IMG/VR virus record: IMGVR_UViG_2541047739_000006
Source: a virus
Lineage: Duplodnaviria; Heunggongvirae; Uroviricota; Caudoviricetes
Length of the DNA: 34,603 bases
Strand: one strand, 5' to 3'
Each line of letters starts with the position of its first letter. Positions within the stretch are counted from its first letter, which is position 1. The notes below the pieces were generated by a model, which was not told the DNA's origin, searched no databases, and saw only the letters and a list, made by a program, of their open reading frames with translations. Below, piece after piece: positions 11,707 through 29,055 of this stretch. The position numbers and the translations under genes are program-made.

Positions 11707-11828
11707 AAAAGGTGTTGGTTCAGTTGGTTCAGTTGGTTCAATTTGTAAAGAGTATTGTTTTATAAGGATTTTATTCTTTTTATTGAACCAACACTGAACC
11801 AACAACACGGTATTTTGAACCAACACAA
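11707..11828. repeat. ori-like iteron module: 3 direct GTTGGTTCA, AT-rich spacer, 3 inverted TGAACCAAC
   Basis: Read directly: AAAAGGTGTTGGTTCAGTTGGTTCAGTTGGTTCAATTTGTAAAGA ... TTGAACCAACACTGAACCAACAACAC ... TTGAACCAACAC, directly 3' of the primase gene; same architecture as the P4 ori with type I iterons. Confidence 0.6.
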
Positions 11829-12912: not shown

Positions 12913-13583
12913 TTACCCATATAGCTTATAAACATCTCAATCGTGCCGTATACGAAAAAGGCGGTGATGGTGGTGCCTCTAAAGCTCAGGCGAAGGCCCA
13001 GCAGCAGGCAATTGATTTGCAGCGCGAGCAGTGGAATACGGTGATGAATAATCTCAAGCCGTATGCAGAAGTCGGATTGCCTGCTTTACAACAACTACAA
13101 GGACTGATGACTCTGGAAGGGCAGAATAAAGCCGCGAATGATTTCTTTGGTTCTGGTTTATATAAAACACAGGCAGATCAGGCCCGTTATCAGAACCTTG
13201 TCTCAGCAGAAGCTACCGGGGGGCTTGGCTCAACAGCTACCAGTAACCAGTTATCTTCCATTGCGCCCATGCTTTATAACAATTGGCTCAGTGGGCAAAT
13301 GCAAAATTATGGAAACCTGCTAAATGTCGGGATGAATGCGGCATCAGGGCAGGCAACAGCAGGGCAAAACTACGCCAATAATACCGGACAACTCTTGCAG
13401 GGGCTTGGCGCTATTCGTGCAGGTCAGGCGCAGCAGCCATCCAGTCTTGCGCGTGGTATTGGTGGGGCGGCATCAGGCGCTTTAGCGGGTGCGCAACTTG
13501 GTTCCGTTGTTCCGGGTATAGGTAATGTCGCCGGGGCTATTGGTGGTGGGCTTATTGGTCTTGTTGGGGGGCTTGGATTCTAA
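12906..13583 (+). CDS. Q/G-rich hypothetical protein with glycine-zipper C-terminus (possible phage ejection/internal protein)
   Basis: 225-aa ORF overlapping the upstream stop; C-terminus GGAASGALAGAQLGSVVPGIGNVAGAIGGGLIGLVGGLGF. Confidence 0.65.
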   Translation: MLITHIAYKHLNRAVYEKGGDGGASKAQAKAQQQAIDLQREQWNTVMNNLKPYAEVGLPALQQLQGLMTLEGQNKAANDFFGSGLYKTQADQARYQNLVSAEATGGLGSTATSNQLSSIAPMLYNNWLSGQMQNYGNLLNVGMNAASGQATAGQNYANNTGQLLQGLGAIRAGQAQQPSSLARGIGGAASGALAGAQLGSVVPGIGNVAGAIGGGLIGLVGGLGF

Positions 13584-14327
13584 TGGCGACATGGCAACTT
13601 GGCGGGCTGCCTAGCATGGCACCGCAAAATGATAATGCTCCTCGTTCTTCCGTTCCTCAGCCTGTGCAGTATCAGCAGCAGCCAAACGTAGGTTTAATGG
13701 CGCTACAGGGGCTAAGAGGCGTTGCTGAGATTAATCAGCAGGCACGTCAACAACAGCGTAAAGCAGAGTTTCAGAAAGCATATGCCGGGGCTTTTGAGTC
13801 TGGAGACAGAAACAAAATGCGCAGTCTTATTTCTGAGTATCCAGAAGAATTTGAAAGCGTTCAGAAAGGGATGGGCTTTATTGATGACGACCAGAGAAAT
13901 TCTATTGGTCATCTTGCGACTAGTGCTCAAATCGCATCTTCGCTCGGAACTGGGGCATTTGGAAAATTCATAGCAGATAACGAAGATGAAATGCGTCGTT
14001 TGGGAATTTCTCCTGAGTCTGTTGCCGAAATGCATGTTAATGATCCACAGGGATTCCAGCGGCTTGCTGGTAGTATGGCACTGTTTTCTCTCGGTCATGA
14101 GAAGTACTTCGATATCAAAGATCGAATGGAAGGTCGGGATATTGAGCGTGGCAAGTTGGCAGAGACGATCCGCAGCAATCAAGCCGGAGAAGCACTTCAG
14201 GCGAGAGGGCAGGATATTAGCCGAGCAAATGCGTTAACGTCAGCATATGCACCAACAGCCGCAATGCAGAATTACAATCAATACGCGCAAATGTTAAAGG
14301 CGGATCCAGAGGGGGCTGCGGCATTTG
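13583..14327 (+). pseudogene. hypothetical phage-like protein, 3'-truncated by IS1
   Basis: ORF starts at the upstream stop (ATGG overlap) and runs into the IS1 end at 14328; the apparent stop lies inside IS1. Confidence 0.6.
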
Positions 14328-14342
14328 GGTAATGACTCCAAC

Positions 14343-14846
14343 TTATTGATAGTGTTTTATGTTCAGATAATGCCCGATGACTTTGTCATGCAGCTCCACC
14401 GATTTTGAGAACGACAGCGACTTCCGTCCCAGCCGTGCCAGGTGCTGCCTCAGATTCAGGTTATGCCGCTCAATTCGCTGCGTATATCGCTTGCTGATTA
14501 CGTGCAGCTTTCCCTTCAGGCGGGATTCATACAGCGGCCAGCCATCCGTCATCCATATCACCACGTCAAAGGGTGACAGCAGGCTCATAAGACGCCCCAG
14601 CGTCGCCATAGTGCGTTCACCGAATACGTGCGCAACAACCGTCTTCCGGAGCCTGTCATACGCGTAAAACAGCCAGCGCTGGCGCGATTTAGCCCCGACA
14701 TAGCCCCACTGTTCGTCCATTTCCGCGCAGACGATGACGTCACTGCCCGGCTGTATGCGCGAGGTTACCGACTGCGGCCTGAGTTTTTTAAGTGACGTAA
14801 AATCGTGTTGAGGCCAACGCCCATAATGCGGGCTGTTGCCCGGCAT
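14343..14846 (-). CDS. insB: IS1 InsB
   Basis: Identical 167-aa InsB as at 5821..6324. Confidence 0.95.
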
Positions 14847-15040
14847 CCAACGCCATTCATGGCCATATCAATGATTTTCTGGTGCGTACCGGGTTGAGAA
14901 GCGGTGTAAGTGAACTGCAGTTGCCATGTTTTACGGCAGTGAGAGCAGAGATAGCGCTGATGTCCGGCGGTGCTTTTGCCGTTACGCACCACCCCGTCAG
15001 TAGCTGAACAGGAGGGACAGCTGATAGAAACAGAAGCCAC
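14765..15040 (-). CDS. insA: IS1 InsA
   Basis: Identical 91-aa InsA as at 5627..5902. Confidence 0.95.
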
Positions 15041-15104
15041 TGGAGCACCTCAAAAACACCATCATACACTAAATCAGTAAGTTGGCAGCATCACCGGGTG
15101 ATTA

Positions 15105-17210
15105 ATGGCTAAAGCATGGAAAGATGTTATCGCCTCTCCACAGTATCAGGCGTTAGCACCAGAACAAAAAGCGCAGGCTCAGGAGCAATACTTCAATGAA
15201 GTCGTGGCCCCGCAAGCCGGAGAAAGTGTAGCGCAGGCTAAGCAGGCTTTTTATGCTGCCTATCCACTACCATCAACGAATGAAATAGACCGATCCCAAT
15301 CAGCAACTCAAAATATTCAACATACATCATCTGATAATTCTCTTGCGTCAGGGTATGCAAAGTTAGCTACTCAGCAAAGAGAGGGGCTTGAGCGTTCAGC
15401 AGAACAGGGAGCCAGTCTTGGGGCTGCGATGCGCGATGCTATAACAGGCGAAAGCCGAATGACTCCAGAGATGGAGAGACTGCAAAATGTCGACCTTGCC
15501 CCAGAGTTAACCTCACTCAGCATGGGTGCTCTAAAAGCTCGATGGTCTCAACTTTTCGGCTCTGACGCATCTCAGGAAAAGATTCTTCAGAGCATGGGAG
15601 CGAAATTAAGGCAGGATGAGAAGGGTAACACTATCGTTTCCCTGCCATCCGGTGATTATGCTCTGAACAAGCCGGGTTTATCGCCGCAAGACGTGGCATC
15701 GTTTCTGGCTAATGCGCTGGCGTTTACACCAGCGGGCAGGGCTGGAACGGTGCTTGGTGCCATAGGAAAATCAGCAGCTACAGATTTAGCACTACAGGGA
15801 GCCACCAGCCTTGCTGGTGGAGAAGATATTGATCCGTTACAAACGGTAATTTCTGCTGGCATTGGTGGTATTGGTAAGGGGCTGGAAAATACAGCGAGTG
15901 CGGTTTCGAGGGCTGTTCGTGGTGATATGTCGCCTGAAGCAAAGGCTGCTGTCAACTTTGCATCGGAAAGAAATCTGCCGTTAATGACCAGTGACATGCT
16001 GAAAGATAAAACCTTTATGCAGAGTCAGGCTCAGACATTAGGCGAAAGAGTTCCTTTTTTTGGAACCGGTAAGAATCGGCTGAATCAACAACAAGCACGA
16101 GAAAATTTAGTCAGAACATTTAGCGATGGTCTGGGTGGCATTTCTGATAAACAGCTTTATGAATCTGCGACTAAAGGGCAACAAAAATTCATTGAGGCAG
16201 CAGGAAAGCGATATAACCGCATAATTGACGCTATGGGGGATACCCCTGTCGATCTCTCAAACACGGTAAAAGCTATCGACAATCAGATTGCCGTGTTAAG
16301 CCGCCCGGGCAAATCTCAGGATAGAGCCGCGGTAAAAGTCTTGCAGCAATTTAAAGACGATATCACCAGCGGACCAAATGACCTGCGTCTGGCGAGGGAA
16401 AACAGAACCGATCTTCGAAAGCGATTTATGGCGTCATCTGACACTGTTGATAAAGATACGCTCCAGAAAGCCAGCGATATTATCTACAAGGCATATACGG
16501 CGGATATGAAAAAAGCCGTAGCCAAAAATCTTGGAGCAGACGAAGCCATTAATATGGCAAGGGTTGATCGGTCATGGTCTAAATTCAATGACATGATGGG
16601 AAGAACGCGCGTTCAAAAGGCAATAGCCAGCGGTAAGGCCACGCCTGAGGATGTAACAAAACTCGTTTTTAGCCAAAGCCCATCAGAACGTTCTCAGCTT
16701 TACAGGCTTCTGGATGACAATGGTAGGCAAAACGCACGAGCAGCCATAGTTCAGAATGCTGTAGATAAGGCGACTGATCCGTCTGGAAATATCAGTGTTG
16801 AGAAGTTTATTAATGCGTTACACCGGAACAGGAAGCAATCAGCAACTTTCTTTAAAGGCGTACATGGAAAGGAACTGGACGGCGTTATTAAATACCTCAA
16901 CGATACAAGACACGCGGCAAAAGCGAACGTTCAAAACTTAAATGGTCAGCAGCTTTATGGATTGTTAGTTGGTGGTGGCATCATAAACGCAGCAGTATTA
17001 GCGGGGATGCTAAAAACGGCTGCGTTTGTTGTTCCTGCTGCTGGTGCCGTAGGCGGAGCAGCGAAGGCATACGAAAGCCCTGTTATACGAAATGCCTTGT
17101 TACGTCTGGCAAATACGCCAAAAGGTAGCACAGCATATGACAGAGCGATCAGTACGGTCACACAATCGCTCACCAGAGTCGCACAGGCATCACAAAAAGA
17201 AGCTCAATAA
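15105..17210 (+). CDS. large A/Q/G-rich hypothetical protein (possible phage ejection / DNA-transfer protein)
   Basis: 701-aa ORF starting 10 nt after the IS1 end (in-frame TGA 2 codons upstream); low-complexity coiled-coil-like N-terminus and hydrophobic glycine-rich C-terminal segment. Confidence 0.65.
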   Translation: MAKAWKDVIASPQYQALAPEQKAQAQEQYFNEVVAPQAGESVAQAKQAFYAAYPLPSTNEIDRSQSATQNIQHTSSDNSLASGYAKLATQQREGLERSAEQGASLGAAMRDAITGESRMTPEMERLQNVDLAPELTSLSMGALKARWSQLFGSDASQEKILQSMGAKLRQDEKGNTIVSLPSGDYALNKPGLSPQDVASFLANALAFTPAGRAGTVLGAIGKSAATDLALQGATSLAGGEDIDPLQTVISAGIGGIGKGLENTASAVSRAVRGDMSPEAKAAVNFASERNLPLMTSDMLKDKTFMQSQAQTLGERVPFFGTGKNRLNQQQARENLVRTFSDGLGGISDKQLYESATKGQQKFIEAAGKRYNRIIDAMGDTPVDLSNTVKAIDNQIAVLSRPGKSQDRAAVKVLQQFKDDITSGPNDLRLARENRTDLRKRFMASSDTVDKDTLQKASDIIYKAYTADMKKAVAKNLGADEAINMARVDRSWSKFNDMMGRTRVQKAIASGKATPEDVTKLVFSQSPSERSQLYRLLDDNGRQNARAAIVQNAVDKATDPSGNISVEKFINALHRNRKQSATFFKGVHGKELDGVIKYLNDTRHAAKANVQNLNGQQLYGLLVGGGIINAAVLAGMLKTAAFVVPAAGAVGGAAKAYESPVIRNALLRLANTPKGSTAYDRAISTVTQSLTRVAQASQKEAQ

Positions 17211-17229
17211 CTGGTTAGCCATGGATGGC

Positions 17230-17844
17230 TTAGATATCTCTGCTGTCTCCATTAGGAAATAAAAGATAATATGGATTTGCCTTTCTTGCTCTCCTTGCTT
17301 CACCCGGATACCTGTTAGTCAGTAGCTTGCATAATGAGCAGAGAACAACACTCAAGAAAATTCCGAATGAGAAGATCAATATCTCACCAAAAATCAATGG
17401 CGATATTAAATTTTCAGGATTTAATGATAAGTCAATGTTAAAAACATATTGAGCAATACCAGTAAGTATCAATAATATAATCCCTATGGAATACATTGCT
17501 GTTTCCCAAACATCAGACAGTCTATTTTTGAATTGTTCGCTGGAGTAGTAGTTTGTTATAAAGTCAGAAAAATCACTCTCATATGCATCATCTTTAGGTG
17601 ATGTTAGAAATCCTCTGTCTCTCCATACCTTCTCCCAATTAGTCGATTCTTTTTTTAAGGAAAAATAAATATGTATTCCCAAAAGGATAGCCAAAATTGG
17701 TGTTAGCTCTAAAAAATAGAATGTTATGGAATAAATAATACTGCCATGTTCAAACTCATCTGGGACTATCATGTATGCACAAAAATAAATTGAAAAGTAC
17801 ACCATGCAGATAGTTAGCAATTCTTTAGTATCTTTTCTGCTCAC
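17230..17844 (-). CDS. multi-pass membrane protein, AT-rich, unknown function
   Basis: 204-aa ORF with several hydrophobic segments (ICMVYFSIYFCAYMIV, LTPILAILLGIHIYF, IGIILLILTGIAQYVF, IFGEILIFSFGIFLSVVLC); composition sharply more AT-rich than its neighbours. Confidence 0.6.
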   Translation of the reverse strand: MSRKDTKELLTICMVYFSIYFCAYMIVPDEFEHGSIIYSITFYFLELTPILAILLGIHIYFSLKKESTNWEKVWRDRGFLTSPKDDAYESDFSDFITNYYSSEQFKNRLSDVWETAMYSIGIILLILTGIAQYVFNIDLSLNPENLISPLIFGEILIFSFGIFLSVVLCSLCKLLTNRYPGEARRARKANPYYLLFPNGDSRDI

Positions 17845-17957
17845 ACCAACCCCCTTTAGCGTTGTTTAGAATGGCAATCATCATATATCCAAGACATGGC
17901 ATTTGGTACATAGCTTGGGTCGGGATTTCAAGTCCGCTCCCAGTTGATGGGGCCGTT

Positions 17958-18342
17958 ACAGTACGCGCATATCCGCTTTATGTGAAACAGGAAGATTTTT
18001 CTGATATCACTGCCACAGCAAAACACCAATTTCGTGACCAGTACGCGCGCGAGGGGTATCAGTTGCAAAATTTTTTGCAACTGCGTCCGACCAGTACGCA
18101 CACGATGGCGGGGGATACCATAAAACTGTTCTCTACATGAGACAGAGTGGTGGTGATGTGTTGATTATCGGCGTATATGCGCACAGGACGCGCTATGACG
18201 ATGTTTTATGCGGGTACACCAATCACATGTATCTGGTGTGATAAATCGCGTTACATGACCTCTCATGTTGTGCTGGTGGTTATCACGACTTTCTGAATCT
18301 GGCCTTTGCCTGATATTTTGCGACAAGTACGCGCGCGTAGCA
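17958..18342. repeat. repeat family with alternating-CG palindromic core (CAGTACGCGC at 17958; GACCAGTACGCGCGCGA at 18036; GACCAGTACGCACACGA at 18089; GACAAGTACGCGCGCGTAGCA at 18322) plus an 11-bp inverted repeat CAGTTGCAAAA-tt-TTTTGCAACTG at 18060..18083
   Basis: Read directly; a fifth copy lies at 19712..19734. Confidence 0.6.
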
Positions 18343-18365
18343 TCGACAGCATACACATTGGATAT

Positions 18366-18587
18366 TCATTTTGTGACCAATGCGATAAGTAGCGGGATAA
18401 GAATTGATAAAATCAACAGGCCGATGATCCACTTTTGATTTTCACTGGCCTTATCTCTATTTTCATCAATCTTATCAATAATTCGACGCTCCAATCCGTG
18501 CATATCACCGCGAATGGCAATCATCTCATTGCGAACATCAGGGAAGTGGTTGGCTTGATGTTCAATGTGTGGCGTTCTGCCTTTCAT
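18366..18587 (-). CDS. small tail-anchored membrane protein (coiled-coil N-terminus + C-terminal TM)
   Basis: 73-aa ORF; charged N-terminal region then WIIGLLILSILIPLLIALV; resembles XhlA/holin-like small proteins, not verified. Confidence 0.5.
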   Translation of the reverse strand: MKGRTPHIEHQANHFPDVRNEMIAIRGDMHGLERRIIDKIDENRDKASENQKWIIGLLILSILIPLLIALVTK

Positions 18588-18666
18588 ATCTGATCCTCAC
18601 CTATCGTCACTACCTGCTGGTGTATAAAGGTATTGGCCCAAGCAACTTTCCAATGGGCACTCATGT

Positions 18667-19122
18667 TTATACGCTGACCTTACAATCAATCACTGCTTTT
18701 AGCTTTTCAGCATTGCTTCCCTGACGCTTCCACGCGCTGTAAATATCTTTATCCCACGCTTTACCAGCTTTTGTTTGATAGCCTGCTTCATTGATCCGTT
18801 CAGCTATCACACGCCCATTATCAAATCCCTGTTGGATGGTATCGGCAATGATCTTTATAACTGCCGTTTCGTTATATGGTTTTGGTGGGATGTTCGGCTT
18901 TCCGGCAATAAGCGACGCAGCGGCTTTTTCCATGCGCTCCACCAGCCCAAGCATTCGTGAATCAATAGACTTTTCCGGCTGCCCCAGCTTCATGCGAATC
19001 GCATCAACAAGCCAGGAGGTTTTATCTCCTCCAGAAGCGAGAACAGACCGATTAAACTCATCCTGCAATTCAGATGGGATGCGGAACGCGACCAGATTAG
19101 ATTTGCTCATTGCAAAGACCAT
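18667..19122 (-). CDS. ribbon-helix-helix (Arc/MetJ-type) domain protein with C-terminal extension
   Basis: 151-aa ORF; N-terminus NLVAFRIPSELQDEFNRSVLASGGDKTSWLVDAIRMKL fits the beta-strand/helix/G-turn/helix RHH pattern (compare P22 Arc/Mnt). Confidence 0.6.
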   Translation of the reverse strand: MVFAMSKSNLVAFRIPSELQDEFNRSVLASGGDKTSWLVDAIRMKLGQPEKSIDSRMLGLVERMEKAAASLIAGKPNIPPKPYNETAVIKIIADTIQQGFDNGRVIAERINEAGYQTKAGKAWDKDIYSAWKRQGSNAEKLKAVIDCKVSV

Positions 19123-19220
19123 ATCAGTGAGTAATATCCATACAGTATACCACTGTATAACACTGTTATACGCTCAAATATCAGCCAGAAAATAACGGAC
19201 CAATCACAAATCTATCGCTG

Positions 19221-19352
19221 TGTTGTTGGTTCAGAGCTGGGCTGTGTTGGTTCAAAATGAGTTGATGTTGGTTCAATATTTCAGAAAAAACACAATAAAA
19301 ACAACAATCTTTACAAATTGAACCAACTGAACCAACTGAACCAACACCTTTT
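19221..19352. repeat. crr-like second iteron module; inverted copy of the ori module
   Basis: The reverse complement begins with the same 43 nt as the ori module (AAAAGGTGTTGGTTCAGTTGGTTCAGTTGGTTCAATTTGTAAAGA), followed by an AT-rich spacer and three TGAACCAAC copies. Confidence 0.55.
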
Positions 19353-19381
19353 TGCTTATCTATATAATCTGAGAGGCAGAA

Positions 19382-19663
19382 ATGATAAGGGACAGGAAAG
19401 CTGAAGAGCTGGAGTCAAAAGGGCTATACCGGAGAGCTGCCGCACGATGGATGGAAGTCATGCTGTTATGCACCGAGGACGATGATCGGGAATGGATAAA
19501 GCGCCGCCGTGAAACGTGTCTGGAGAACGTGAAGCGCCCGCCCGTGAAGGTTGAGGAATTTGGCGACCTGCATAAAGCTGTTACCGAAACGCAACACCGC
19601 ATGGGGATAGCGCAACCGAACGGTAACGCCTTCCGGTTAAATGGCGGCAAGAGGCAAAGGTAG
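19382..19663 (+). CDS. PerC-family transcriptional activator homolog
   Basis: 93-aa ORF; N-terminus MIRDRKAEELESKGLYRRAAARWMEVML matches the PerC/Pch family signature as I recall it. Confidence 0.6.
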   Translation: MIRDRKAEELESKGLYRRAAARWMEVMLLCTEDDDREWIKRRRETCLENVKRPPVKVEEFGDLHKAVTETQHRMGIAQPNGNAFRLNGGKRQR

Positions 19664-19960
19664 ACCACCAGAGGGAAATCATCCTCTGGCTGGCGGTTTC
19701 TGGTATTTCGGGACAAGTACGCGCGCGCGTAGCACCCAATCGGTGAGGAAATAGCGGCGACCTGAATGGTCAAAATCACAACGCAGCTATCCCCGTAAGC
19801 AGCGCTTAACGGAATAGCAGTAACCTGAATCCAGTGGGGAGGGGGTAGTCAAATCTCTACAGCCCTGACTATCCGGGACTGCCCGCCCCATCGTTTTTTT
19901 ATACCCGCGAAAAATGAAATTTAATCCGGGCGTGTTTCATTCTTCCAGAGGGTATGACGT

Positions 19961-20146
19961 ATGACACCACGCGAAATAGCCTTATTGACCATCGCCAAAC
20001 TTGAGCACGGAGGCCACCAGCTTACACAGGCAGATCAACGGGAGATAGAACGATCAGTTAATGCCGATATAGCCCGGCGCGACAGGTTCCGCGAAATGAT
20101 GCGAGCACCTGCCTACCAGTGGAAGAAGCCAGCGCCGCGCAGGTAG
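19961..20146 (+). CDS. hypothetical small protein
   Basis: 61-aa ORF with a GAGGG Shine-Dalgarno-like sequence upstream; no recognisable domain. Confidence 0.35.
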   Translation: MTPREIALLTIAKLEHGGHQLTQADQREIERSVNADIARRDRFREMMRAPAYQWKKPAPRR

Positions 20147-20266
20147 ATATGGGATTATTCCACATGTAACTTATGCGTATTAAGCAAATTTCCTTTATTC
20201 ACCTTTACAGAATTGTGAGTACGTCAGTATCGTTATCCTTCCGATTCGCATTTATTCAGGATTTGC

Positions 20267-20809
20267 ATGTACCAGCTAAAGATAACCATCCGAGACAGCA
20301 AACCACCTATATGGCGGCGTGTGCTGGTTCCAGAGCAAATCCCCTTTAGTAAACTTCATGCCGTGATCCAGTTAGCTTTTGGCTGGAATGACGAACACCT
20401 GTATATGTTCGAGAAAGGGCGTAAAGGTGATCCAGGTAGCGAGTATCGCGTATGGGGTGAGGATGAAAGCATGGGTAACGCGGCAATCACGCCACTATGG
20501 GCGGCGCTCCAGAATGAGGGTGACAAGCTGGTTTACACGTATGACTTTGGCGACTGGTGGGATTGCGTCATTGTGCTGGAGAAGCAAACACACGATACGA
20601 GTAATCAGCCCATTAGCTGCCTGCGTGGGAAAGGCACCACCCCGGCGGAAAACTCAGGCGGCTTGCATGGTTACAATGAATTGCTATTACAGGCCAGAGA
20701 GTCTGATAATCCTGAGCAGGCCGAGATCCACAATTTCCTGATGCTGGATATTGAACGCCGGGTTTACGACCTGAGCCGCATCAACGACAGATTGCAGGCT
20801 ATTAACTGA
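20267..20809 (+). CDS. plasmid pRiA4b ORF-3-like family protein
   Basis: 180-aa ORF; N-terminus LKITIRDSKPPIWRRVLVP...LHAVIQLAFGWNDEHLYMF is the hallmark of the pRiA4b ORF-3-like (PF07929) family. Confidence 0.75.
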   Translation: MYQLKITIRDSKPPIWRRVLVPEQIPFSKLHAVIQLAFGWNDEHLYMFEKGRKGDPGSEYRVWGEDESMGNAAITPLWAALQNEGDKLVYTYDFGDWWDCVIVLEKQTHDTSNQPISCLRGKGTTPAENSGGLHGYNELLLQARESDNPEQAEIHNFLMLDIERRVYDLSRINDRLQAIN

Positions 20810-21161
20810 CCCGCATGTATTCACCTGATATTGCGTTGTCAGCGCCGCCAGTATCGCGCATAACAGCGCACTGACCGGGTAAACCGTAGCGCACGACCGT
20901 TGCGTTAGTATCACCGCCGCGCCGTATCTGGCGCGATTCATACACTGTCACCCGCTCAAGCAGTCCACCAGCAACCATGCTTTCCAGTGTGCGCCGGGTT
21001 GATTCGAGCTGGTGACGCTTATCGAACGACACCATGCCATGAAGCAGGTAGGCCACACCCGACACATCGAACGGCGGCGCACCAATCTCACCAGTCACCC
21101 ATTCGAGGTTATCCGGTTCAAAGTAGCTAAGTATCTCTTTTTTGCGGCTGGTCATTCTCAT
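20802..21161 (-). CDS. hypothetical protein
   Basis: 119-aa ORF convergent with and overlapping the previous gene by 8 nt; AAGGA upstream. Confidence 0.5.
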   Translation of the reverse strand: MRMTSRKKEILSYFEPDNLEWVTGEIGAPPFDVSGVAYLLHGMVSFDKRHQLESTRRTLESMVAGGLLERVTVYESRQIRRGGDTNATVVRYGLPGQCAVMRDTGGADNAISGEYMRVS

Positions 21162-21279
21162 GGCTGGCTGATTCCTTATTGTGGGATAGCACTATCATAC
21201 AATAAGTGGGTTAAAGGGAGAGCGTTACCGCCTGATATGCTGTATGAATAACAACCAAATTTCAGGGGCGGAAAAAGAT

Positions 21280-21378
21280 ATGGGGGTACTTTTGGGGGTA
21301 TCTATAAAAAATGAACAATAAAAAAGGCAACAAAAACAAAGCTTATCGCCTATGTGTATTGTTCCTATTATCGCACAA
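21280..21378 (+). other. putative attR of the P4-like element (arm-type repeat ATGGGGGTACTTTTGGGGGTAT plus degenerate core TCCTATTATCG-CACAA)
   Basis: 21/22 match to the arm repeat at 1557; TCCTATTATCG at 21363..21373 matches the thrW 3' end at 1428..1438, then diverges. Confidence 0.4.
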
Positions 21379-21983
21379 TCAAGAAAATCAATAACTTAGC
21401 TTAACTTCTCTAAGAAATTGTATCTTCTGTTATCACTTACAAACGCCTATACGTTGTTATGGGCTTTGGTAGTGTAACACGTATGGGCGAGTAGTTCCCA
21501 GGCTCAACCTCGTAACAAGTTCCTTTGAAGCTGGAAGACGTGCCACCGTCTCTAAACCTTCTACCAAAACTCTTAGCAAGATGTTCCACACCTGGCGCGG
21601 TGTCCAATGATGCTACACGTCGTGAGACGTTGCAGAGGATAAACAGGCTAAATGATGGGAAGAGTTTTAAGTGCAATAGTGGATCAAAGCCCACCTCTTC
21701 AAAACCTAACTTGATCGGGAAAGAATCAAGCTCTAGCACGGTTTCGTCCACCGGAGTACAACGGGTGCCTGATAAGAGAAGAACTGCTAAGACTTCATAG
21801 CTTTTGTGAAAAAGCCCTTTTAGTGGATACGCCTACGGCGCTTATTTTTTGGGGTAGCCCATCAAAGGCGCTTTATGGCTCCTATTGTCTTGAAAATGTA
21901 TCTTTACTTGTATTGTGTTTTATGCGTAGTCTCCCTGTGTAGTATGTAACTTGTTAATTTTCATATGAATACAGAGGCACACG

Positions 21984-22142
21984 ATGAAAAACATTGCAGC
22001 TATCAAACGTAATAACCGCAAGATTCACGCTCGTAAGTTCCTGTCTACGCCAGAAGGAAAAGCCTGGCTAGAGCGTAAACAGAGAGAGAACGAAGAAAGA
22101 AAACTCCTTAATGAGTTGAAATGGCTTAGAGAGGATTTCTGA
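21984..22142 (+). CDS. hypothetical small basic protein (52 aa)
   Basis: ATG with GAGG 8 nt upstream; K/R-rich helical-looking sequence; below ORF-track cutoff. Confidence 0.3.
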   Translation: MKNIAAIKRNNRKIHARKFLSTPEGKAWLERKQRENEERKLLNELKWLREDF

Positions 22143-22310
22143 AAATCTCCAGAACGCAACAGGACGCATTCTAACGCTATTTTCATTGCTTGGTATAGGG
22201 ATGTATAGGTGATGTGTGTTTAATGCGTCTGTGCGCTTGTTTTGTGCCTTATTTTGCATTTTCATAATGCAGAAGAGAACACGGAAAACCTTAAAATTAA
22301 TTATTGGGGT

Positions 22311-22472
22311 ATTTAAGGGTATTTTCAGGTGATTTAAGGGTATTAAACTTGATTTAATTGATTAAAATATAAACAGATAGTTGTGTATCTTATTGATTTA
22401 TAAGGTTATTTTTAAATAAAGGTAAATAAAAAATAAATAGCCATAAATAGCTATAAATACATCTAAATACCT
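22311..22472. repeat. direct repeats ATTTAAGGGTATT x2 (22311, 22332) and four tandem ~10-bp units TAAATAsC (22434..22472)
   Basis: Read directly in AT-rich non-coding DNA; helical-turn periodicity. Confidence 0.55.
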
Positions 22473-22610
22473 ATATCCCTTCCCTTATGGCTAGATTGCG
22501 AGAGGTGCTTAACGCGATTTTCAGCGCCCCCCGATCTGGAAAATCCAGAATCCCCAAATATCAGCAAGGAATTTTCTTGCGTAATCAACATCGTTTTTAC
22601 CTATTAAATC

Positions 22611-23925
22611 ATTACACAGAAAGCCTTTCTGTAATGTCTCTCACTAAACTTTCACTAAACACGAGAATGATCGGTTTTATGTCGGATCAGATGCTAGAAA
22701 CAGCACCACGTCTCACAAGGACTGTAAGCGATGAAACCAGTGTTTATGCGGGTGCAGGTCAAAATATAGGCCAAAATCAATTTAACATAATAAACGTAAT
22801 ATGCACTAAGGAACACATAGAACGCCTTGAGTTGATGTATCAGGGGAAAAATGATGGATTTTTTACGTAGGAGCACGAGAGGGCTTCTGTTGACTTTTGT
22901 ATGCTATGAAACATAATTAAAGGTTTTTTTGTTTTTATTGTGTGATGTAGTGGATTACACAGGGGAATAGATTAAATGGTGTTCTGTTTATACAGGTTTA
23001 TTTGTTAGATCAACAATTTGGCATTTCTAAACAGATGTTTGAACGTTGCCAAATGTCTTGACAACACAAGAAAAGGGCTTGCTATGCCACGCATTACACG
23101 AAATAAGGCTGTAAAAACAAAATAAATTTTAAAATTTGCACAAACGAGAAAACTCGTTAAGAAACAAGCAGAACAATTTTTAGCCAACAATTTCTGATGG
23201 TGCTCTGTAGGCCGCACTACACAAGGATTTGCGAAAGTGATGTAAAAGTGAAGAAAGTAAGAATTGCACTTTTAAGCTACTTTTCATTGAATTTTTAGTA
23301 TGGAATTACACAGGAATAAGTTAGGGATATTCTATGATTTACACAGGGAATATAGGGGATTATGGCACACACATAGAAAGGCATTACACAGAGTGAGTGC
23401 TATGTGATGATTGGTAGTAACGGTAGGTCATAGTGAGCTAGGGGGTAGGTCACTGTGAACTACAATAAGACTATTAATAAAACTATATTAGATTATTAAT
23501 TAGATCATAATAATAATATTCTTTATATCTATATATATGATCTTTTGCCTTCCGGCGTTAGCTTCACTCTCTGGCAAGCAGCCTTACTCCGCTACCTTTC
23601 GGGCTTCGTGGCTGGCCCGTTCCGCTCACACCGAAAGCAAAGCGTTACTTTCTTCGTGTAACTTCGTTGGCGGTAACGCCCACGAAGAAATCTATTGCGC
23701 TGTGCGCAGTAAGAGTAATCACCTAACCAATCATACTGATTGCTTATGTGTTAACTCTCTCTAACTCTTAATTACCCTCCTACATTTAATAACTCTGTTA
23801 TTCTCTGTAGTTGTGTAATTACTCGAAGAGAGAGCGGCTAAAGCTCAATTACACTCTGCTTTCCTCGTGTAATTTCACTAAGCCTCAATACAATTTCACT
23901 TCCTACATTCTGTAGTCGTGTAATT
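22611..23925. repeat. dispersed iteron-like motif ATTACACAGG(G)AATA: about six forward copies (22611, 22954, 23093, 23305, 23337, 23383) then about four inverted copies (about 23655, 23813, 23866, 23916)
   Basis: Read directly; forward copies cluster upstream and inverted copies downstream of a GC-rich hairpin island. Confidence 0.55.
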
Positions 23926-24561
23926 GTTTTCGGTGGAAAAGCCAGAGGCGACACCGAAAGAGAATTCTGATCTTATTAATCTTATCTATCTTAGTTAATC
24001 TTCTTACTTATCTTACTTACTTTATCTACTTTATTATTAATAATAGCTTTATAAGCTCTCTGTGTAGCTCTCTGACGCAAGAAACAGCATTCAGGAAGGG
24101 AATCACCTTAGAAAAGGTGTTCTTTGCGTCATAATGTGTTTTATGAAGGATTCAGAGGTGTTTCATAACAGGAATGTATAGAGAATACTTTAGGTAATTA
24201 AAAATAAGGGGTCTAAATGCTTCTCTAACAGCATTAAGCAGGGTAGGGAATGGAAACGCATTGCCTACATATAATAAACTCACTACAGGGCTTTACAGGG
24301 CGTTTTATAAAGTGACTCTCTGTTTTATATCTACAATCACCTTTTCATATACCTAACAAATACAAAATAAGCCCCTTAAATAAGCCTCTGGCGAGCTAAA
24401 CAGACATTACATAAGAGAATGTATTGCTTTTATCAAAACTTCGTTAGAACGCGTTTTAGAGCGTTTTAGCGGATAATGAAGAATAGCACTACACAGAAGA
24501 GCACGAATTGCCAAGACAAATTATAACATGCTGAAAAAGATCGATTTTTTCGAAAAGGGTA

Positions 24562-24590
24562 TTGACAAATGTTTCTTTATATGTAATAAT
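24562..24590 (+). promoter_or_regulatory. sigma70-like promoter (TTGACA, about 17 bp, AATAAT) preceded by palindrome TTTTCGAAAA
   Basis: Consensus -35 at 24562..24567; AT-rich -10 at about 24585; about 115 nt upstream of the first gene of the operon. Confidence 0.35.
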
Positions 24591-24703
24591 AGGTATTAGA
24601 GGGACAGAAAAACATTCTTCTCTAAATAATCAAAATCAATGCACTTTGAAGCCGTCAGGCTTGCAAGGTGTTTTATTTCTTTTAACTGAATAAGGAGTTT
24701 TTT

Positions 24704-24892
24704 ATGAAATGGTTTACACCGGAGCACGTCGTAAAGGCATTTAAAAAAGGTGAGCTTACACGCCACCAAATAGTAATGAATCGTAATATGGCAAGGAGTC
24801 GAGGTTATCCAGAGCGAGCAGCTTGCTTCAATGAAGCACTCAAGATTATTGATGAACTAAGAAAAAATGAAAAAGAATCTGAAACAGAGTAA
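24704..24892 (+). CDS. hypothetical small protein
   Basis: 62-aa ORF with AAGGAG 7 nt upstream of ATG. Confidence 0.55.
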   Translation: MKWFTPEHVVKAFKKGELTRHQIVMNRNMARSRGYPERAACFNEALKIIDELRKNEKESETE

Positions 24893-24911
24893 AGAAGAGA
24901 AGGAGAAAACT

Positions 24912-25082
24912 ATGAGCGAAGCTACAGAAAAGAAAAGACAACCACGCACTTGCTTTCATATTCCTGATGAAGTATTTCAGGTGTTGTTTAAAGAAGCCAG
25001 AAGTAAACGTATCACTGTTACAGATTACATTCTTGATATGTTGAAAAGAGAGGCTGAAACACTCTCAAATAAAAGCAAGTGA
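24912..25082 (+). CDS. small putative DNA-binding protein (56 aa)
   Basis: AAGGAG 7 nt before ATG 24912; the listed 24867 start overlaps the upstream gene. Confidence 0.5.
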   Translation: MSEATEKKRQPRTCFHIPDEVFQVLFKEARSKRITVTDYILDMLKREAETLSNKSK

Positions 25083-25135
25083 TTTTTATCACCATAGTAG
25101 CGCCATAGAGCGTGATTACATCAAGGAGATTTTTA

Positions 25136-25828
25136 ATGATTAACCAACTAACTTTTACAAAACACTATGACACGTTTGATAATATATCAAAGATTTATTC
25201 TGATAAATTCCCTCAAGGAAAAGATTTAGATCTATTACATATTGTGCTTTATTTTCGATTCCTTAGTTATCAGGAAAACAACCTTAATTGTTATGAAAGT
25301 CACGAAACATTAGCTAAGATTTTTAAGTCTTCACCATCAACAATTAAACGTAAGATAAACGATCTTAAAGAGATGGGATTATTAGAAACATCCCCACATC
25401 CTGATCCGTATATTTCATCTTTGATTTACAATGCTCTCCCTCTCACAGATGCACATATTACTCCCCCAGGAGAATCATCACTCTCTGATCTTTCTGAGGC
25501 AGAAGAAGCACAGGAACAACCTAAAGGCCATAAACAGCCTTCTTTTGATGTTCTTGATGATGATTGGGATACGCCTTTACCCTGGGAGACGGAAGAAACA
25601 CCTGTTTCATCAAGTGAAAAGGTAGCTAATGATAATGAGGAGGATGTGTTAGAGAATTTTGCCTCTCTTATCATCCAGGAGAAACACAAAAGAACAGGAG
25701 GGGCATCATTTATAGAATTTGCAAATTCACTAGCTTGTAGATACGGGCTAAAACGACCAAATGGTATTGAGGCATATTTTTCTAAGCATTACCCAAATGT
25801 ATACGAAGACTTTGATATTCCCTTTTAA
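25136..25828 (+). CDS. replication-initiator-like protein (wHTH N-domain, acidic linker)
   Basis: AGGAG before ATG 25136; ETLAKIFKSSPSTIKRKINDLKEMGLLE helix-turn-helix; acidic stretch DLSEAEEAQEQ...DDDWDTPLPWETEE. Confidence 0.6.
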   Translation: MINQLTFTKHYDTFDNISKIYSDKFPQGKDLDLLHIVLYFRFLSYQENNLNCYESHETLAKIFKSSPSTIKRKINDLKEMGLLETSPHPDPYISSLIYNALPLTDAHITPPGESSLSDLSEAEEAQEQPKGHKQPSFDVLDDDWDTPLPWETEETPVSSSEKVANDNEEDVLENFASLIIQEKHKRTGGASFIEFANSLACRYGLKRPNGIEAYFSKHYPNVYEDFDIPF

Positions 25829-25844
25829 AAAGTAAGGAGGACTA

Positions 25845-26123
25845 TTGATACAGTATTTAATAAAAAGCAAAGTAGACAGAATTCAGTGTAACGACACAGG
25901 AAAACGCATCTACGAAACGCTTGCTTACCTCTATAAAGGAAAGCCAACACCGCTAAAATATAGCGATGTGTTACATCGAGCAGGTTGCTCTGAGTCAGGT
26001 TTAAAATTCTGGCTGAAACAGCTATCAAATTTCGGTGTTATTGAAATGAAAGAGCTGTCTTTCTCTACATTTAATCTCAAAAGACTAGATAAAGAAATAG
26101 AATTCATCTATTCCACTCTCTAA
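25845..26123 (+). CDS. hypothetical small wHTH-like protein
   Basis: 92-aa ORF with AGGAGG upstream. Confidence 0.55.
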   Translation: MIQYLIKSKVDRIQCNDTGKRIYETLAYLYKGKPTPLKYSDVLHRAGCSESGLKFWLKQLSNFGVIEMKELSFSTFNLKRLDKEIEFIYSTL

Positions 26124-26255
26124 AATCTCTCTATGTAATTAAAATATAAAAGGAAAACATTATTATGATAGTAGCTATGTATTGGTTATTGTTCTTTCTC
26201 ACGTTAGAAGCATATTTCGGGGTGTTTTCCTTTAAAAGAAAAGGAAAAGTAAATT

Positions 26256-26666
26256 ATGGCAAAAAGAAAAAACAACGTTGTTAAGAAAATCGGTGATTCA
26301 GCTTCTCTTCTAAGTAAACCTAAATCTATTCTAAAACGTAAAGACTTTAAAGAGCTAGTTACGCTCACCAAGCATAATAGCGCCCCTGGCGAATGGAAAA
26401 CAGAGATCATAGAACATTCTCCCTCTGTGCCTTGTGGAGATGAATATATCGCCTTACAAGAAATCTTATCTTCAACACCTGGCGTGTTCTGGAAACCTAA
26501 AAAAAGAAAAGAGTATATCGTTGATAGCTCTGATTTACGCAAATACCAGATTTTAGGATTTGAAGATTATAATCACTACGTTGGTTATCTCGCCACAAAT
26601 GGCCTAAATAATTTAGTTCCTGAATTCCAGATTTTAGATAATGCAGATCACTATGGAGACTTTTAA
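26256..26666 (+). CDS. hypothetical protein with basic N-terminus
   Basis: 136-aa ORF starting MAKRKNNVVKKIG. Confidence 0.6.
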   Translation: MAKRKNNVVKKIGDSASLLSKPKSILKRKDFKELVTLTKHNSAPGEWKTEIIEHSPSVPCGDEYIALQEILSSTPGVFWKPKKRKEYIVDSSDLRKYQILGFEDYNHYVGYLATNGLNNLVPEFQILDNADHYGDF

Positions 26667-26667
26667 T

Positions 26668-27006
26668 ATGAACAAAAACACGTATGACACAATTTACTCA
26701 CTAATTAATTATTATGAGGATGATTACCTCCTGCCTTTAAACCGCGCTGAACTTGAAGCATACAAAGAAAACACGCCAGCGGCACTAAATGAGGCGTTTA
26801 AACACTGGGATTTAGCTGTGAATGCCTTTGAGCACCTCTCTAAGCGTGTAGAGATGCTCTGTAAGCGCGAAAACGCATACCTGACAGCCGATCAGGTATG
26901 GGAATTATCAAACTGGATAGAAGATATTGAATCTGATGTTCGCTATGTGGGAGATGGACTTGTTGAACTAGCGCAACGCTTAGGCGCTACTATCACAGAA
27001 GAATAA
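26668..27006 (+). CDS. hypothetical protein (113 aa)
   Basis: ATG 26668 right after the upstream stop, GGAG upstream; the listed 26641 start overlaps. Confidence 0.55.
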   Translation: MNKNTYDTIYSLINYYEDDYLLPLNRAELEAYKENTPAALNEAFKHWDLAVNAFEHLSKRVEMLCKRENAYLTADQVWELSNWIEDIESDVRYVGDGLVELAQRLGATITEE

Positions 27007-27256
27007 AAAAAGCAACAAAAAAGTTGTAAAATATCTTGGCATTCCATCTATTGTATGTTAATATAATTATATAGGGGTGATTATTTTTCCTTTATTGGTT
27101 CGATATTAAAAATTCTTCCTGTCATTAAAGGGGAGTAAAATCTCCGCTCCCCGCTTCTTCTCCTCCTTAAGTAAATACTGTGCCATTATACCTCTTTGTT
27201 ATGCATACATCTTGGAGTATGCATAACATAGGGTAATTACATAGGTATGAGTTAAT

Positions 27257-27288
27257 AAAAGGCGGCTTTAAATGCTGCCTTTTATTTT
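27257..27288 (+). terminator. intrinsic terminator between the early and structural operons
   Basis: AAAGGCGGC-TTTAAAT-GCTGCCTTT stem-loop followed by TATTTTG. Confidence 0.45.
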
Positions 27289-27350
27289 GCCCGTTATACA
27301 ACTTAAAAGTTGTATTTCTTACTTTAAACAAGGTAACAAGGTTTATATAA

Positions 27351-27563
27351 ATGTTGCTCTTAAATGATAAAGAGCAAATCATCAAGTATAAAGATGAAAT
27401 GCTGAAAATTAATCCACAAATTACCGAAATGGTAGCTAAATACGCTGGGTGTTCTGTCGAGGAAGTAGAAAGATGTGTTGAAAAATATTTTTCTCCTTCT
27501 TCTCCGTCTACACCTTCCCTTAATGAATTAATCAAATTAAAAGCTAAGGAGATTACTAAATGA
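27351..27563 (+). CDS. hypothetical small protein
   Basis: 70-aa ORF; its stop overlaps the next start. Confidence 0.5.
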   Translation: MLLLNDKEQIIKYKDEMLKINPQITEMVAKYAGCSVEEVERCVEKYFSPSSPSTPSLNELIKLKAKEITK

Positions 27564-27922
27564 TTATTGATTTAGACACTCTGTTTCCAGTTCGAAAGAC
27601 TTTCACGGATATTGTAAGTTATTGTACTGATCCGTTTGCCTCTGTAGAAAGCAAGGTTTTTGCTTCTCTTCCTGCTGATGTTGAGTGCGGCGACTTGATC
27701 ACCAGCACTGGCGCTAAATATGAATCAGGAGATGATATTTATGTTGTTATGAGTGAATTTGTAACGGCTGGAGAAAACAAGCCTGTAGATGTGCTACGTA
27801 GCAATGCTGGGCTTGTATGCATCAAAGCTGATGCGCTGAATGCTGTAAGTGAAGCAGCAAAAACAGCATTAATTAAAAAAGGCTTTCAGCTTGAAGGGTT
27901 CCATTCTGTTTTCACTTCTTAA
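27560..27922 (+). CDS. hypothetical protein (possible scaffold/decoration-type partner of the next gene)
   Basis: 120-aa ORF, ATGA-coupled to the upstream gene, 18 nt before the 342-aa gene. Confidence 0.6.
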   Translation: MIIDLDTLFPVRKTFTDIVSYCTDPFASVESKVFASLPADVECGDLITSTGAKYESGDDIYVVMSEFVTAGENKPVDVLRSNAGLVCIKADALNAVSEAAKTALIKKGFQLEGFHSVFTS

Positions 27923-27940
27923 TAAAAGGAATAATAATAA

Positions 27941-28969: not shown

Positions 28970-28987
28970 TATTTTAACGTGTAATAG

Positions 28988-29022: not shown

Positions 29023-29055
29023 ATTTATTTTTAAATTTTGAGAGGTGATTAAAAT

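What the first reader, a model, noticed from the sequence alone, without database searches (positions are those of the whole stretch)
18366..19122. RHH-domain protein plus small tail-anchored membrane protein as a two-gene minus-strand unit
A 151-aa protein with an Arc/MetJ-type RHH N-terminus and an unknown ~100-aa C-terminal domain is followed 79 nt downstream by a 73-aa protein with a charged coiled-coil N-terminus and a single C-terminal TM helix. This pairing is reminiscent of regulator plus holin/XhlA-like or small membrane toxin modules. Its position next to the crr-like iterons also allows a replication or partition regulator role.
Basis: inference. Interest (0 to 1): 0.45.

Follow-up and report, generated by a model that had tools for sequence, protein, structure and literature searches.

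The report
Satellite regulator gene beside swappable membrane-protein cassette
The two genes are real but are not a dedicated pair: a conserved, self-regulating DNA-binding protein of a phage satellite sits next to a swappable slot for anti-phage genes, which here holds a small XhlA-like membrane protein borrowed from P22-like prophages.

Summary
Both ORFs are real and annotated in RefSeq. The larger one starts at Met5, so it is 147 aa, not 151.

The window is E. coli chromosome at thrW. It carries a Gram-negative PICI-type satellite: integrase, AlpA, AntA, primase, then captured P22 genes 14/7/20/16 and a SieA-like gene.

The 147-aa protein has a ribbon-helix-helix N-terminus and a recombinase-like HTH C-terminus. 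It is a conserved gene of this satellite lineage across Enterobacterales. Its promoter carries GTNNNAC subsites 10 bp apart, abutting an extended -10. The subsite sequence covaries perfectly with two beta-strand residues, so it is most likely an autorepressor.

The 73-aa protein is a divergent XhlA-family tail-anchored membrane protein under purifying selection. It lies in a ~365-bp cassette with homologues in the mnt operon of P22-like prophages. In sister E. coli satellites this cassette is replaced by an AbiD gene. In other genera the same slot holds Shosta or SoFic.

So this is an anchor gene beside a defence-hotspot cassette, not a regulator-toxin module or a replication regulator. The membrane protein's function is untested. 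My best guess is phage exclusion at the membrane in the integrated state. Interest is moderate.

The parts
18667..19110 (-). P147: 147-aa DNA-binding protein. It has an RHH N-terminus (about residues 5-45 of the 151-aa ORF), a long helix (52-73) and a recombinase-like HTH domain (81-149). The ORF extends to 19122, but Met5 is the conserved start.
   Evidence: start, conservation; AF2 model, C-terminal pLDDT about 91; domain assignments; distribution.
19144..19171 (-). P147 promoter and operator. Three 7-bp subsites lie in 10-bp register: GTATAAC (19165-19171), GTTATAC (19155-19161) and GGTATAC (19145-19151). The last overlaps an extended -10 (TG at 19151-19152, TATACT at 19144-19149).
   Evidence: fixed position -61/-51/-42 from the ATG in about 50 loci, covarying with beta-strand residues; found only at this promoter.
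18588..18666 (-). 79-nt spacer. It has no consensus promoter or terminator. The distal 38 nt (18588-18625) are homologous to coding sequence of the longer (100-117 aa) XhlA-like forms, here closed by an in-frame TGA.
   Evidence: and direct reading.
18366..18587 (-). 73-aa XhlA-family tail-anchored membrane protein. The N-terminal half is charged and helical, with a single C-terminal TM helix and an invariant ...PLxIALVTK end.
18347..18711 (-). Swappable cassette: the 73-aa gene, the spacer and the last 15 codons of P147. In E. coli Ec387 and PEC131 it is replaced by a 1.4-kb AbiD/Abi_2 gene on the other strand.
   Evidence: Searches show what fills the slot in other genera.
17845..18365 (.). 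Gene-free 520-nt stretch, kept whichever cassette is present. It contains three copies of GACMAGTACGCGCGCG and presumably the promoter of the sieA-like gene.
17230..17844 (-). 204-aa SieA-like inner-membrane protein, convergent with the gp16-type ejection gene. GC content is 31-35%.
   Evidence: 29% identity to P22 SieA, RYPGEA motif; 34% to the tested HS1 SieA. PMC10883804.
19225..19345 (.). Iteron cluster of 6 x TGAACCAAC, an inverted copy of the cluster at 11714-11824 just after the primase gene (P4 ori/crr-like layout).
19382..19663 (+). Divergent PerC-family gene.

Best explanation
The locus lies in the 3'-end accessory region of a Gram-negative PICI-type phage satellite integrated at thrW.

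P147 is a conserved gene of this satellite lineage. It is most likely an RHH dimer-of-dimers that binds GTNNNAC subsites spaced one helical turn apart. These cover the -35, spacer and -10 regions of its own extended -10 promoter, so it most likely represses its own transcription. This step is inferred from covariation, not shown. The role of its invariant C-terminal recombinase-like HTH domain is unknown.

Directly 3' of P147 is a slot where accessory genes are exchanged. In this E. coli variant the slot holds a ~365-bp cassette with homologues in the mnt operon of P22-like prophages. It encodes an XhlA-family tail-anchored membrane protein. The cassette has no recognisable promoter of its own and no terminator precedes it. 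It is therefore probably transcribed by read-through from the P147 promoter in the integrated state (inferred).

Three position arguments bear on its function:
- The slot holds AbiD, Shosta or SoFic elsewhere.
- A SieA-like exclusion gene is adjacent.
- Homologues sit beside injection-apparatus genes: the P22 E-proteins, or the tape measure of a Klebsiella siphovirus prophage.

From these, the 73-aa protein most likely acts at the inner membrane against superinfecting phages, by exclusion or abortive infection, rather than as a lysis holin or an addiction toxin. This is inferred and untested.
For: Element identity:
- AlpA (71 bits), AntA, a Zn-ribbon/Toprim/DUF927 primase, and P22 gp14, gp7 and gp20.
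- A gp16-type gene and a SieA-like gene.
- The layout matches the four-zone GN-PICI scheme, with helper late genes captured in the late zone (PMC10111431).

P147 is conserved with the element:
- 49 loci were found across Enterobacterales, and 24 have a homologue of the window's primase within 10 kb.
- There is no match in 50,697 phage records.

Operator:
- 29 loci with the beta-strand (N/T)L(V/I)AFR carry GTATAAC..GTTATAC.
- 21 loci with (L/I)SVTFR carry GTCTTAC..GTCTTAC.
- None is crossed, and the positions are fixed at -61/-51 with TGnTAnnnT at about -42.
- The GTATAAC-class site occurs once per locus that has it, and is absent from the seven P22-like prophage loci, P22 and the E. coli HS region.

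Cassette:
- Homology to sister satellites breaks at 18346/18347 and resumes at 18712, with AbiD in its place.
- DNA homology to P22-like prophages is confined to 18368-18625.
- In those prophages the order is arc <-|-> mnt-like, orf121/123, xhlA-like, orf107/109, then <- gp16. In L076-78 the first three reading frames overlap.

Slot content elsewhere: ShosT 1.6e-48 and ShosA 2e-101, AbiD 4.8e-55, SoFic 2e-122.

PICIs are reported to carry immune systems at their 5' or 3' ends (PMC11364771).

The 73-aa gene is under purifying selection (dN/dS about 0.2).
Against: - No experiment or transcript data were available. Autorepression and co-transcription are inferences.
- The covariation amounts to essentially one specificity switch between two clades. 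It is one evolutionary event, not 50 independent ones.
- The window's own proteins give no Pfam hit at threshold and no PADLOC hit.
- Many slot occupants lie on the opposite strand, so P147 is not generally needed to express cargo.
- The 73-aa copy lacks the Gly-rich N-terminal extension of the 100-117-aa forms. It could be a crippled remnant, although dN/dS argues against that.
- The defence role rests only on position.
Confidence: 0.6

Rival explanations
1. Regulator plus small membrane toxin/holin module. The RHH protein represses or neutralises a toxic 73-aa membrane protein, as in an addiction or lysis-timing pair.
For: The genes are adjacent on the same strand, 79 nt apart, with no terminator between them. 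The 73-aa family is related to XhlA and weakly to a PHROG holin family. XhlA-like genes lie near RHH genes in three different backbones.
Against: - The pairing is not conserved. P147 is in 361 E. coli genomes and the cassette in 169.
- In 40+ loci from other genera there is no XhlA-like gene next to P143.
- The cassette is exchanged for AbiD with P147 retained.
- In P22-like prophages the homologue sits in the mnt operon. In P22 that operon belongs to the immunity region active in lysogens, which argues against a lethal product.
- No endolysin, spanin or XhlB-type holin is nearby.
Confidence: 0.1
2. P147 is a replication or partition regulator acting at the adjacent crr-like iterons of the satellite replicon.
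For: An iteron cluster (19225-19345) lies about 115-235 bp upstream of the gene and mirrors the cluster after the primase gene. About 16 loci share this adjacency. The protein has a second, invariant DNA-binding-like domain.
Against: - In most loci no iterons lie within 300 nt of the gene.
- Many Providencia, Morganella and Photorhabdus loci have no TGAACCAAC within 10 kb, yet keep the same C-terminal domain.
- Iteron presence therefore does not follow P143 conservation. In P4 the alpha primase binds the iterons (own knowledge).
- The covarying operator is at the promoter, not in the iterons.
Confidence: 0.1
3. The 73-aa protein keeps the canonical XhlA role. It would be a lysis accessory that helps helper-phage holin/endolysin action when the satellite is mobilised.
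For: Family relationship to XhlA and to a PHROG holin family. In PBSX, XhlA works with the holin XhlB and the amidase XlyA (own knowledge).
Against: It is never found in a lysis cassette in the loci examined. Instead it lies in the mnt operon of P22-like prophages, in the tail region of a Klebsiella prophage, and in the PICI 3' slot. It is oriented opposite to the late genes here. It alternates with defence genes.
Confidence: 0.12
4. P147 is a functional analogue of P22 Mnt. It would be a prophage-state repressor whose real target is an antirepressor or induction gene of the satellite or of its helper.
For: It occupies the Mnt position in the captured P22-type module: gp16 -> <- sieA <- small ORF <- RHH gene, then a divergent promoter region. 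It has an RHH followed by a long helix, like Mnt's tetramerisation helix. The satellite encodes an AntA-type protein.
Against: - There is no Arc/Mnt Pfam hit.
- The family is present in satellites that carry no P22 module.
- Its operator occurs only at its own promoter, not in the P22-like prophage loci, P22 or the E. coli HS region.
- The divergent perC promoter is more than 130 bp away.
Confidence: 0.12

Closest known systems
Phage P22 immI-proximal region: mnt-orf59a operon followed by sieA, next to ejection gene 16
   Same: The order and orientation match. An ejection gene 16 homologue faces a sieA-type gene, then a small ORF, then an RHH repressor gene with a divergent control region. The 204-aa neighbour is a SieA homologue with the RYPGEA motif (PMC10883804).
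   Different: P147 is not an Arc/Mnt family member by sequence and carries an extra HTH-like domain. P22 orf59a is a soluble Gly/Lys-rich protein unrelated to the 73-aa protein. The partner on the other side is perC plus iterons, not arc-ant. The host element is a satellite, not a phage.
XhlA (PF10779), membrane protein of the Bacillus subtilis PBSX lysis cassette
   Same: Same size and architecture: an N-terminal charged helical region and a single C-terminal TM helix. Close homologues carry PF10779.
   Different: The window copy itself is below every Pfam threshold. It is not next to a holin or endolysin. It lies in a Gram-negative prophage or satellite accessory slot and is probably expressed in the integrated state.
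PICI/P4/P2 hotspots of anti-phage systems (PICI 5'/3'-end immune regions)
   Same: A fixed position flanked by conserved genes holds different defence systems in different copies: AbiD, Shosta, SoFic and SieA-like. Published PICIs carry immune systems at their 3' ends (PMC11364771).
   Different: The anchor gene here (P147) and the XhlA-like occupant are not described in the papers I read. PADLOC does not recognise the 73-aa or the 204-aa protein.
RHH repressors that bind tandem subsites as higher oligomers (Arc, Mnt, MetJ, CopG, omega, ParG)
   Same: A beta-strand with alternating residues precedes two helices. The subsites are spaced one helical turn apart and overlap the promoter. The two residues that differ between the clades fall at the positions equivalent to Arc Gln9 and Asn11 (own knowledge of Arc-DNA contacts).
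   Different: It has an extra C-terminal recombinase-like HTH domain. No member has been characterised. HMMER finds only 81 representatives among 1.84 billion proteins.
HK97 gp15, a single-pass inner-membrane superinfection-exclusion moron next to the tape-measure gene
   Same: Both are small membrane proteins encoded beside the DNA-injection apparatus genes. The Klebsiella XhlA-like gene sits just upstream of the tail chaperone and tape-measure genes. The E. coli ones sit next to gp16/20/7.
   Different: No sequence relationship was tested or known. The comparison is by position only (own knowledge of HK97).

Membership tests
Ribbon-helix-helix (Arc/MetJ-type) DNA-binding proteins | N-terminal beta-strand with alternating exposed residues, followed by two helices | tested here: met
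   The AF2 model has an extended N-terminus, then helices 17-29 and 34-45. The motif LVAFRIPxEL aligns in register with Mnt FNFRMPMEV.
Ribbon-helix-helix (Arc/MetJ-type) DNA-binding proteins | Significant match to an RHH profile (RHH_1, Arc, etc.) | tested here: inconclusive
   No Pfam RHH hit for the window protein or the 26 aligned members. PHROG 30270 hits the N-terminus at E=3e-4. Distant full-length homologues score 19.1 bits on RHH_1 (cut-off 20.5) and 20.5 bits on NikA-like.
Ribbon-helix-helix (Arc/MetJ-type) DNA-binding proteins | Sequence-specific binding of repeated subsites through the beta-sheet | not testable with these tools
   Indirect support only. Beta-strand residues 6 and 8 (L/A versus S/T) covary perfectly with the subsite sequence in 50 loci.
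P22 Mnt/Arc family (PF03869) | Match to the Arc profile | tested here: not met
   No PF03869 hit in 26 members at E<=10. hhalign to an E. coli Mnt-like protein gives only 23 columns at E=0.029.
P22 Mnt/Arc family (PF03869) | Position between sieA/gene 16 and a divergent control region | tested here: met
HTH_62 / recombinase-like HTH (PF20552, PF07508) | Profile match above the curated cut-off | tested here: inconclusive
XhlA family (PF10779) | Profile match above the gathering score (34.7 bits) | tested here: not met
   The window protein has no hit. The best family member in my scans scores 29.6 bits. Homologues at about 49% identity carry a precomputed PF10779 hit, marked weak for the one homologue looked up (P0154), and the NCBI name 'hemolysin XhlA family protein'.
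XhlA family (PF10779) | Protein of about 70-100 aa with an N-terminal helical region and a single C-terminal TM helix | tested here: met
XhlA family (PF10779) | Encoded in a lysis cassette with a holin (XhlB) and an endolysin | tested here: not met
   No lysis genes flank it here, in P22-like prophages or in the Klebsiella prophage.
Type II toxin-antitoxin / regulator-toxin pair | The two genes are co-inherited as a unit across lineages | tested here: not met
SieA superinfection-exclusion proteins (for the 204-aa neighbour) | Multi-pass inner-membrane protein with the cytoplasmic motif FxRYPxEAxxFNK, encoded next to gene 16 | tested here: met
   It has LTNRYPGEARRARK. It is 29% identical to P22 SieA and 34% to the tested HS1 SieA over 108-118 aa. 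The position is confirmed. Motif definition from PMC10883804.
Gram-negative PICI satellites | Co-oriented int, alpA and pri; ori after pri; no full virion gene set; late zone with captured helper genes | tested here: met
   Iterons after pri are shown. Scheme from PMC10111431. Mobilisation by a helper was not tested.

The most novel reading that the evidence does not exclude
The XhlA-like tail-anchored proteins could be an unrecognised class of superinfection-exclusion or abortive-infection factors. They travel with DNA-injection genes (P22 E-proteins, siphovirus tape measure) and have been captured into the 3' defence hotspot of a PICI lineage. P147 would be that lineage's uncharacterised two-domain regulator. 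Its DNA specificity would be set by two beta-strand residues, so it could be re-programmed by L6S/A8T.
Probability: 0.25. Interest if true: 0.55.

Novelty: new variant of a known kind. Interest (0 to 1): 0.36.

Why it matters
- The result re-labels two 'hypothetical proteins' found in about 3-7% of complete E. coli genomes.
- It identifies a conserved anchor gene that marks a defence hotspot in a widespread Enterobacterales satellite lineage. That is useful for mining new anti-phage genes: several slot occupants, including the 73-aa protein, are unknown to PADLOC.
- P147 offers a clean natural example of an RHH specificity switch: two residues against a 3-bp change in the subsite. This can be tested directly.
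- It adds a documented case of a PICI capturing the P22 ejection and exclusion module.
- None of this overturns current views. It extends known themes: mosaic morons, satellite hotspots and RHH autoregulation.

Tried and rejected
- Megablast of 18000-19800 against deposited phages found nothing. tblastn of P147 against phages found nothing either.
- A PDB sequence search with the family profile gave nothing meaningful.
- An Rfam scan of 17000-21500 gave only a chance miRNA match.
- The consensus promoter/terminator scan found no sigma-70 -35/-10 pair and no intrinsic terminator in the unit. The promoter was instead found by cross-genus conservation.
- The RNA fold of the spacer plus the 73-aa gene is unremarkable (z = -0.4).
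- PADLOC found no hit for P147, the 73-aa protein, the 204-aa protein or other neighbours.
- I tested whether P22 orf59a is the homologue of the 73-aa protein. It is unrelated.
- I considered that P147's C-terminal domain might correspond to the 123-aa Zn-finger protein that follows mnt in P22-like prophages. Nothing supports this: that protein matches different PHROG families and only weak Zn-finger Pfam models.
- I considered that the P147 operator might also occur in helper-type prophages. It does not.
- A search for the attR direct repeat with 14-nt seeds found nothing, so the right boundary of the element is not mapped.
- PHROG searches of the ORFs in the 520-nt gene-free stretch found nothing.
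- I did not use the second structure job or the third fold search, as they would not have been decisive.

Full report
**Observation.**
- ORFs 18667-19122 (-) and 18366-18587 (-) exist and are 79 nt apart.
- A 100%-identical E. coli chromosome annotates both as hypothetical proteins. It calls the larger one from Met5, at 147 aa.
- Alignment of 26 homologues confirms Met5 as the conserved start.
- The 73-aa ORF has a strong Shine-Dalgarno sequence. Its last 19 residues are strongly hydrophobic (mean Kyte-Doolittle 2.5). dN/dS is 0.17-0.25 against homologues. It is a real, selected coding gene.

**Context.**
- The window starts with proA and thrW (tRNA-Thr). An integrative element follows.
- Its genes, in order, are: integrase, AlpA (71 bits), AntA-type protein, Zn-ribbon/Toprim/DUF927 primase, then P22 gp14 (DUF2824), gp7, gp20 and gp16 homologues.
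- In this copy gp20 is cut by IS1.
- On the minus strand come a 204-aa membrane protein, the 73-aa gene and P147. Then follow a divergent perC and a few small genes.
- This matches the published four-zone organisation of Gram-negative PICIs: integration zone, Bro zone, replication zone, and a late zone that captures helper late genes (PMC10111431).
- The 204-aa protein is a SieA homologue. It is 29% identical to P22 SieA and 34% to the experimentally tested HS1 SieA, with the RYPGEA motif (PMC10883804).
- The local order therefore mirrors P22. There, gene 16 faces sieA, then orf59a and mnt on the same strand, and arc-ant diverge from mnt.

**P147.**
- The family has more than 355 clusters at 90% identity. 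All named members are Enterobacterales, at 58-79% identity.
- An exhaustive HMMER search of 1.84 billion representatives returns only 81 hits, mostly fragments.
- It is absent from 50,697 phage records.
- In 49 genome loci it travels with homologues of the window's integrase, primase, perC and a 61-aa gene.
- It usually sits at the far end of the element and is usually monocistronic, facing the end of the opposite-strand operon.
- The AF2 model shows an extended N-terminus plus two helices, a long helix, and a confident four-helix C-terminal domain.
- The RHH assignment rests on PHROG 30270, an in-register hhalign match to Mnt and near-threshold RHH_1/NikA hits in distant homologues.

**Operator.**
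- Upstream sequences diverge between genera except for one block.
- That block holds two subsites, GTNNNAC, at -61 and -51 from the ATG, followed by an extended -10 (TGnTAnnnT) at about -42. In E. coli a third subsite overlaps the -10.
- All 29 loci with the beta-strand (N/T)L(V/I)AFR have GTATAAC..GTTATAC.
- All 21 loci with (L/I)SVTFR have GTCTTAC..GTCTTAC. None is crossed.
- The two residues that differ fall at the positions equivalent to the base-contacting Gln9 and Asn11 of Arc (own knowledge).
- The site occurs once per locus and only at this promoter. It is not found in the P22-like prophage loci, in P22 or in the E. coli HS region.
- I infer autorepression by a dimer-of-dimers.
- One caveat applies. 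The covariation reflects essentially one switch between two clades.

**The 73-aa protein.**
- A single-sequence search finds only 24 clusters, mostly E. coli.
- A profile search reaches 187 proteins. Many carry PF10779 (XhlA) and NCBI's 'hemolysin XhlA family protein' name, at about 49% identity to the query.
- My own scans stay below the Pfam cut-off (29.6 against 34.7 bits).
- The family is PHROG 6324 (function unknown) and is related to a holin PHROG.
- An 82%-identical homologue lies in P22-like E. coli prophages. There it is in the operon mnt-like, orf121/123, xhlA-like, orf107/109, convergent with gp16. In L076-78 the mnt-like, orf121 and xhlA-like frames overlap.
- Another homologue lies in the tail region of Klebsiella siphovirus prophages. 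In one case it is beside an Arc/Mnt/Ant module.
- DNA homology between the window and the P22-like prophages is confined to 18368-18625.
- The 38 nt upstream of the ATG are a remnant of the longer form's coding sequence, closed by a TGA.

**Not a conserved pair.**
- P147 is in 361 of 5426 complete E. coli genomes and the cassette in 169.
- In E. coli Ec387 and PEC131 the flanks are 98-99% identical. Yet 18347-18711 is replaced by a 1.4-kb AbiD gene on the other strand.
- In other genera the slot directly 3' of P143 holds Shosta (ShosT 1.6e-48, ShosA 2e-101), AbiD (4.8e-55), SoFic (2e-122), a trypsin-like protein, IS elements or unknowns.
- This is a defence hotspot. It agrees with reports that PICIs carry immune systems at their 3' ends (PMC11364771).

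**Iterons.**
- TGAACCAAC occurs in two mirrored clusters: after the primase gene (11714-11824) and between P147 and perC (19225-19345). This resembles the P4 ori/crr layout.
- Adjacency to P143 holds in only about a third of the loci.
- Many Morganellaceae loci lack the iteron entirely while keeping the P143 C-terminal domain.
- A replication role for P147 is therefore not supported.

**Conclusion.**
- The finding is a conserved satellite anchor and regulator gene next to a swappable accessory cassette.
- The regulator-toxin, holin and replication-regulator readings are each unlikely.
- The membrane protein's function remains untested. Position favours phage exclusion or abortive infection at the membrane.

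Noticed in passing
window 14343-15040 (minus strand), within 13583-15104: An IS1 (InsB 14343-14846, InsA 14765-15040) interrupts the P22 gp20-type ejection gene, leaving a 249-aa N-terminal fragment. Sister elements have an intact 473-aa gene, so the captured injection module is probably non-functional in this copy.
   Followed up: partly
window 18036-18051, 18089-18104, 18322-18337, 19712-19727: The motif GACMAGTACGCGCGCG occurs four times (0.33 expected). Three copies are in the 520-nt gene-free stretch between the 73-aa and sieA-like genes, and one is after perC. The same motif, in the same orientation relative to P143, occurs near P143 in Serratia, Buttiauxella and Erwinia loci. Its function is unknown.
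   Followed up: partly
window 11714-11824 and 19225-19345: Two mirrored clusters of six TGAACCAAC iterons (three tandem, three spaced) lie 7.4 kb apart, one directly after the primase gene. This is a P4 ori/crr-like arrangement and is probably the satellite replicon's origin elements.
   Followed up: partly
window about 21400-34603: A second integrative element follows in tandem at thrW. It has an HTH protein (25112-25828), a major capsid protein (27941-28969), a baseplate-like protein (32474-33187), an IS2 in the reference genome and an intF-like integrase (33269-34603, minus). It may be a capsid-forming PICI or a prophage remnant.
   Followed up: no
L003-L006, L013, L020, L024, L035, L039-L044, L047, L048, L052 (relatives of the element): Where this element carries P22 gp14/7/20/16, many related satellites carry an 850-1250-aa TMP_3 (tape-measure-like) protein with small conserved partners. 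The lineage seems to carry its own DNA-injection proteins, matched to podovirus or siphovirus helpers.
   Followed up: no
L061-L064, L076-L078, L073: XhlA-like genes lie beside Arc/Mnt/Ant (immI-type) modules in P22-like E. coli prophages and in a Klebsiella siphovirus prophage. In the P22-like prophages they are preceded by a 121-123-aa Zn-finger-like protein (PHROG 4293) and followed by a membrane-anchored coiled-coil protein (PHROG 8100). All three are uncharacterised.
   Followed up: partly
window 20802-21161 (minus) and L005, L012, L017, L024, L028, L031, L036, L037, L041, L051: A 119-124-aa protein with no family hit lies directly upstream of P143 on the same strand in about 12 loci (62-76% identity). 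In the window it is separated from P147 by an inserted perC, 61-aa and pRiA4b-ORF3 block on the other strand.
   Followed up: no
L079 (E. coli HS, NC_009800 291741-335045): In E. coli HS the P22-like prophage HS1, which carries the tested type B sieA, occupies thrW. It is followed by a second tyrosine integrase whose RefSeq accession is close to that of the integrase in the sister satellite L002. I did not compare the sequences. If the two are related, a P22-like helper and this satellite type could sit in tandem at thrW, which would give opportunity for gene capture.
   Followed up: no
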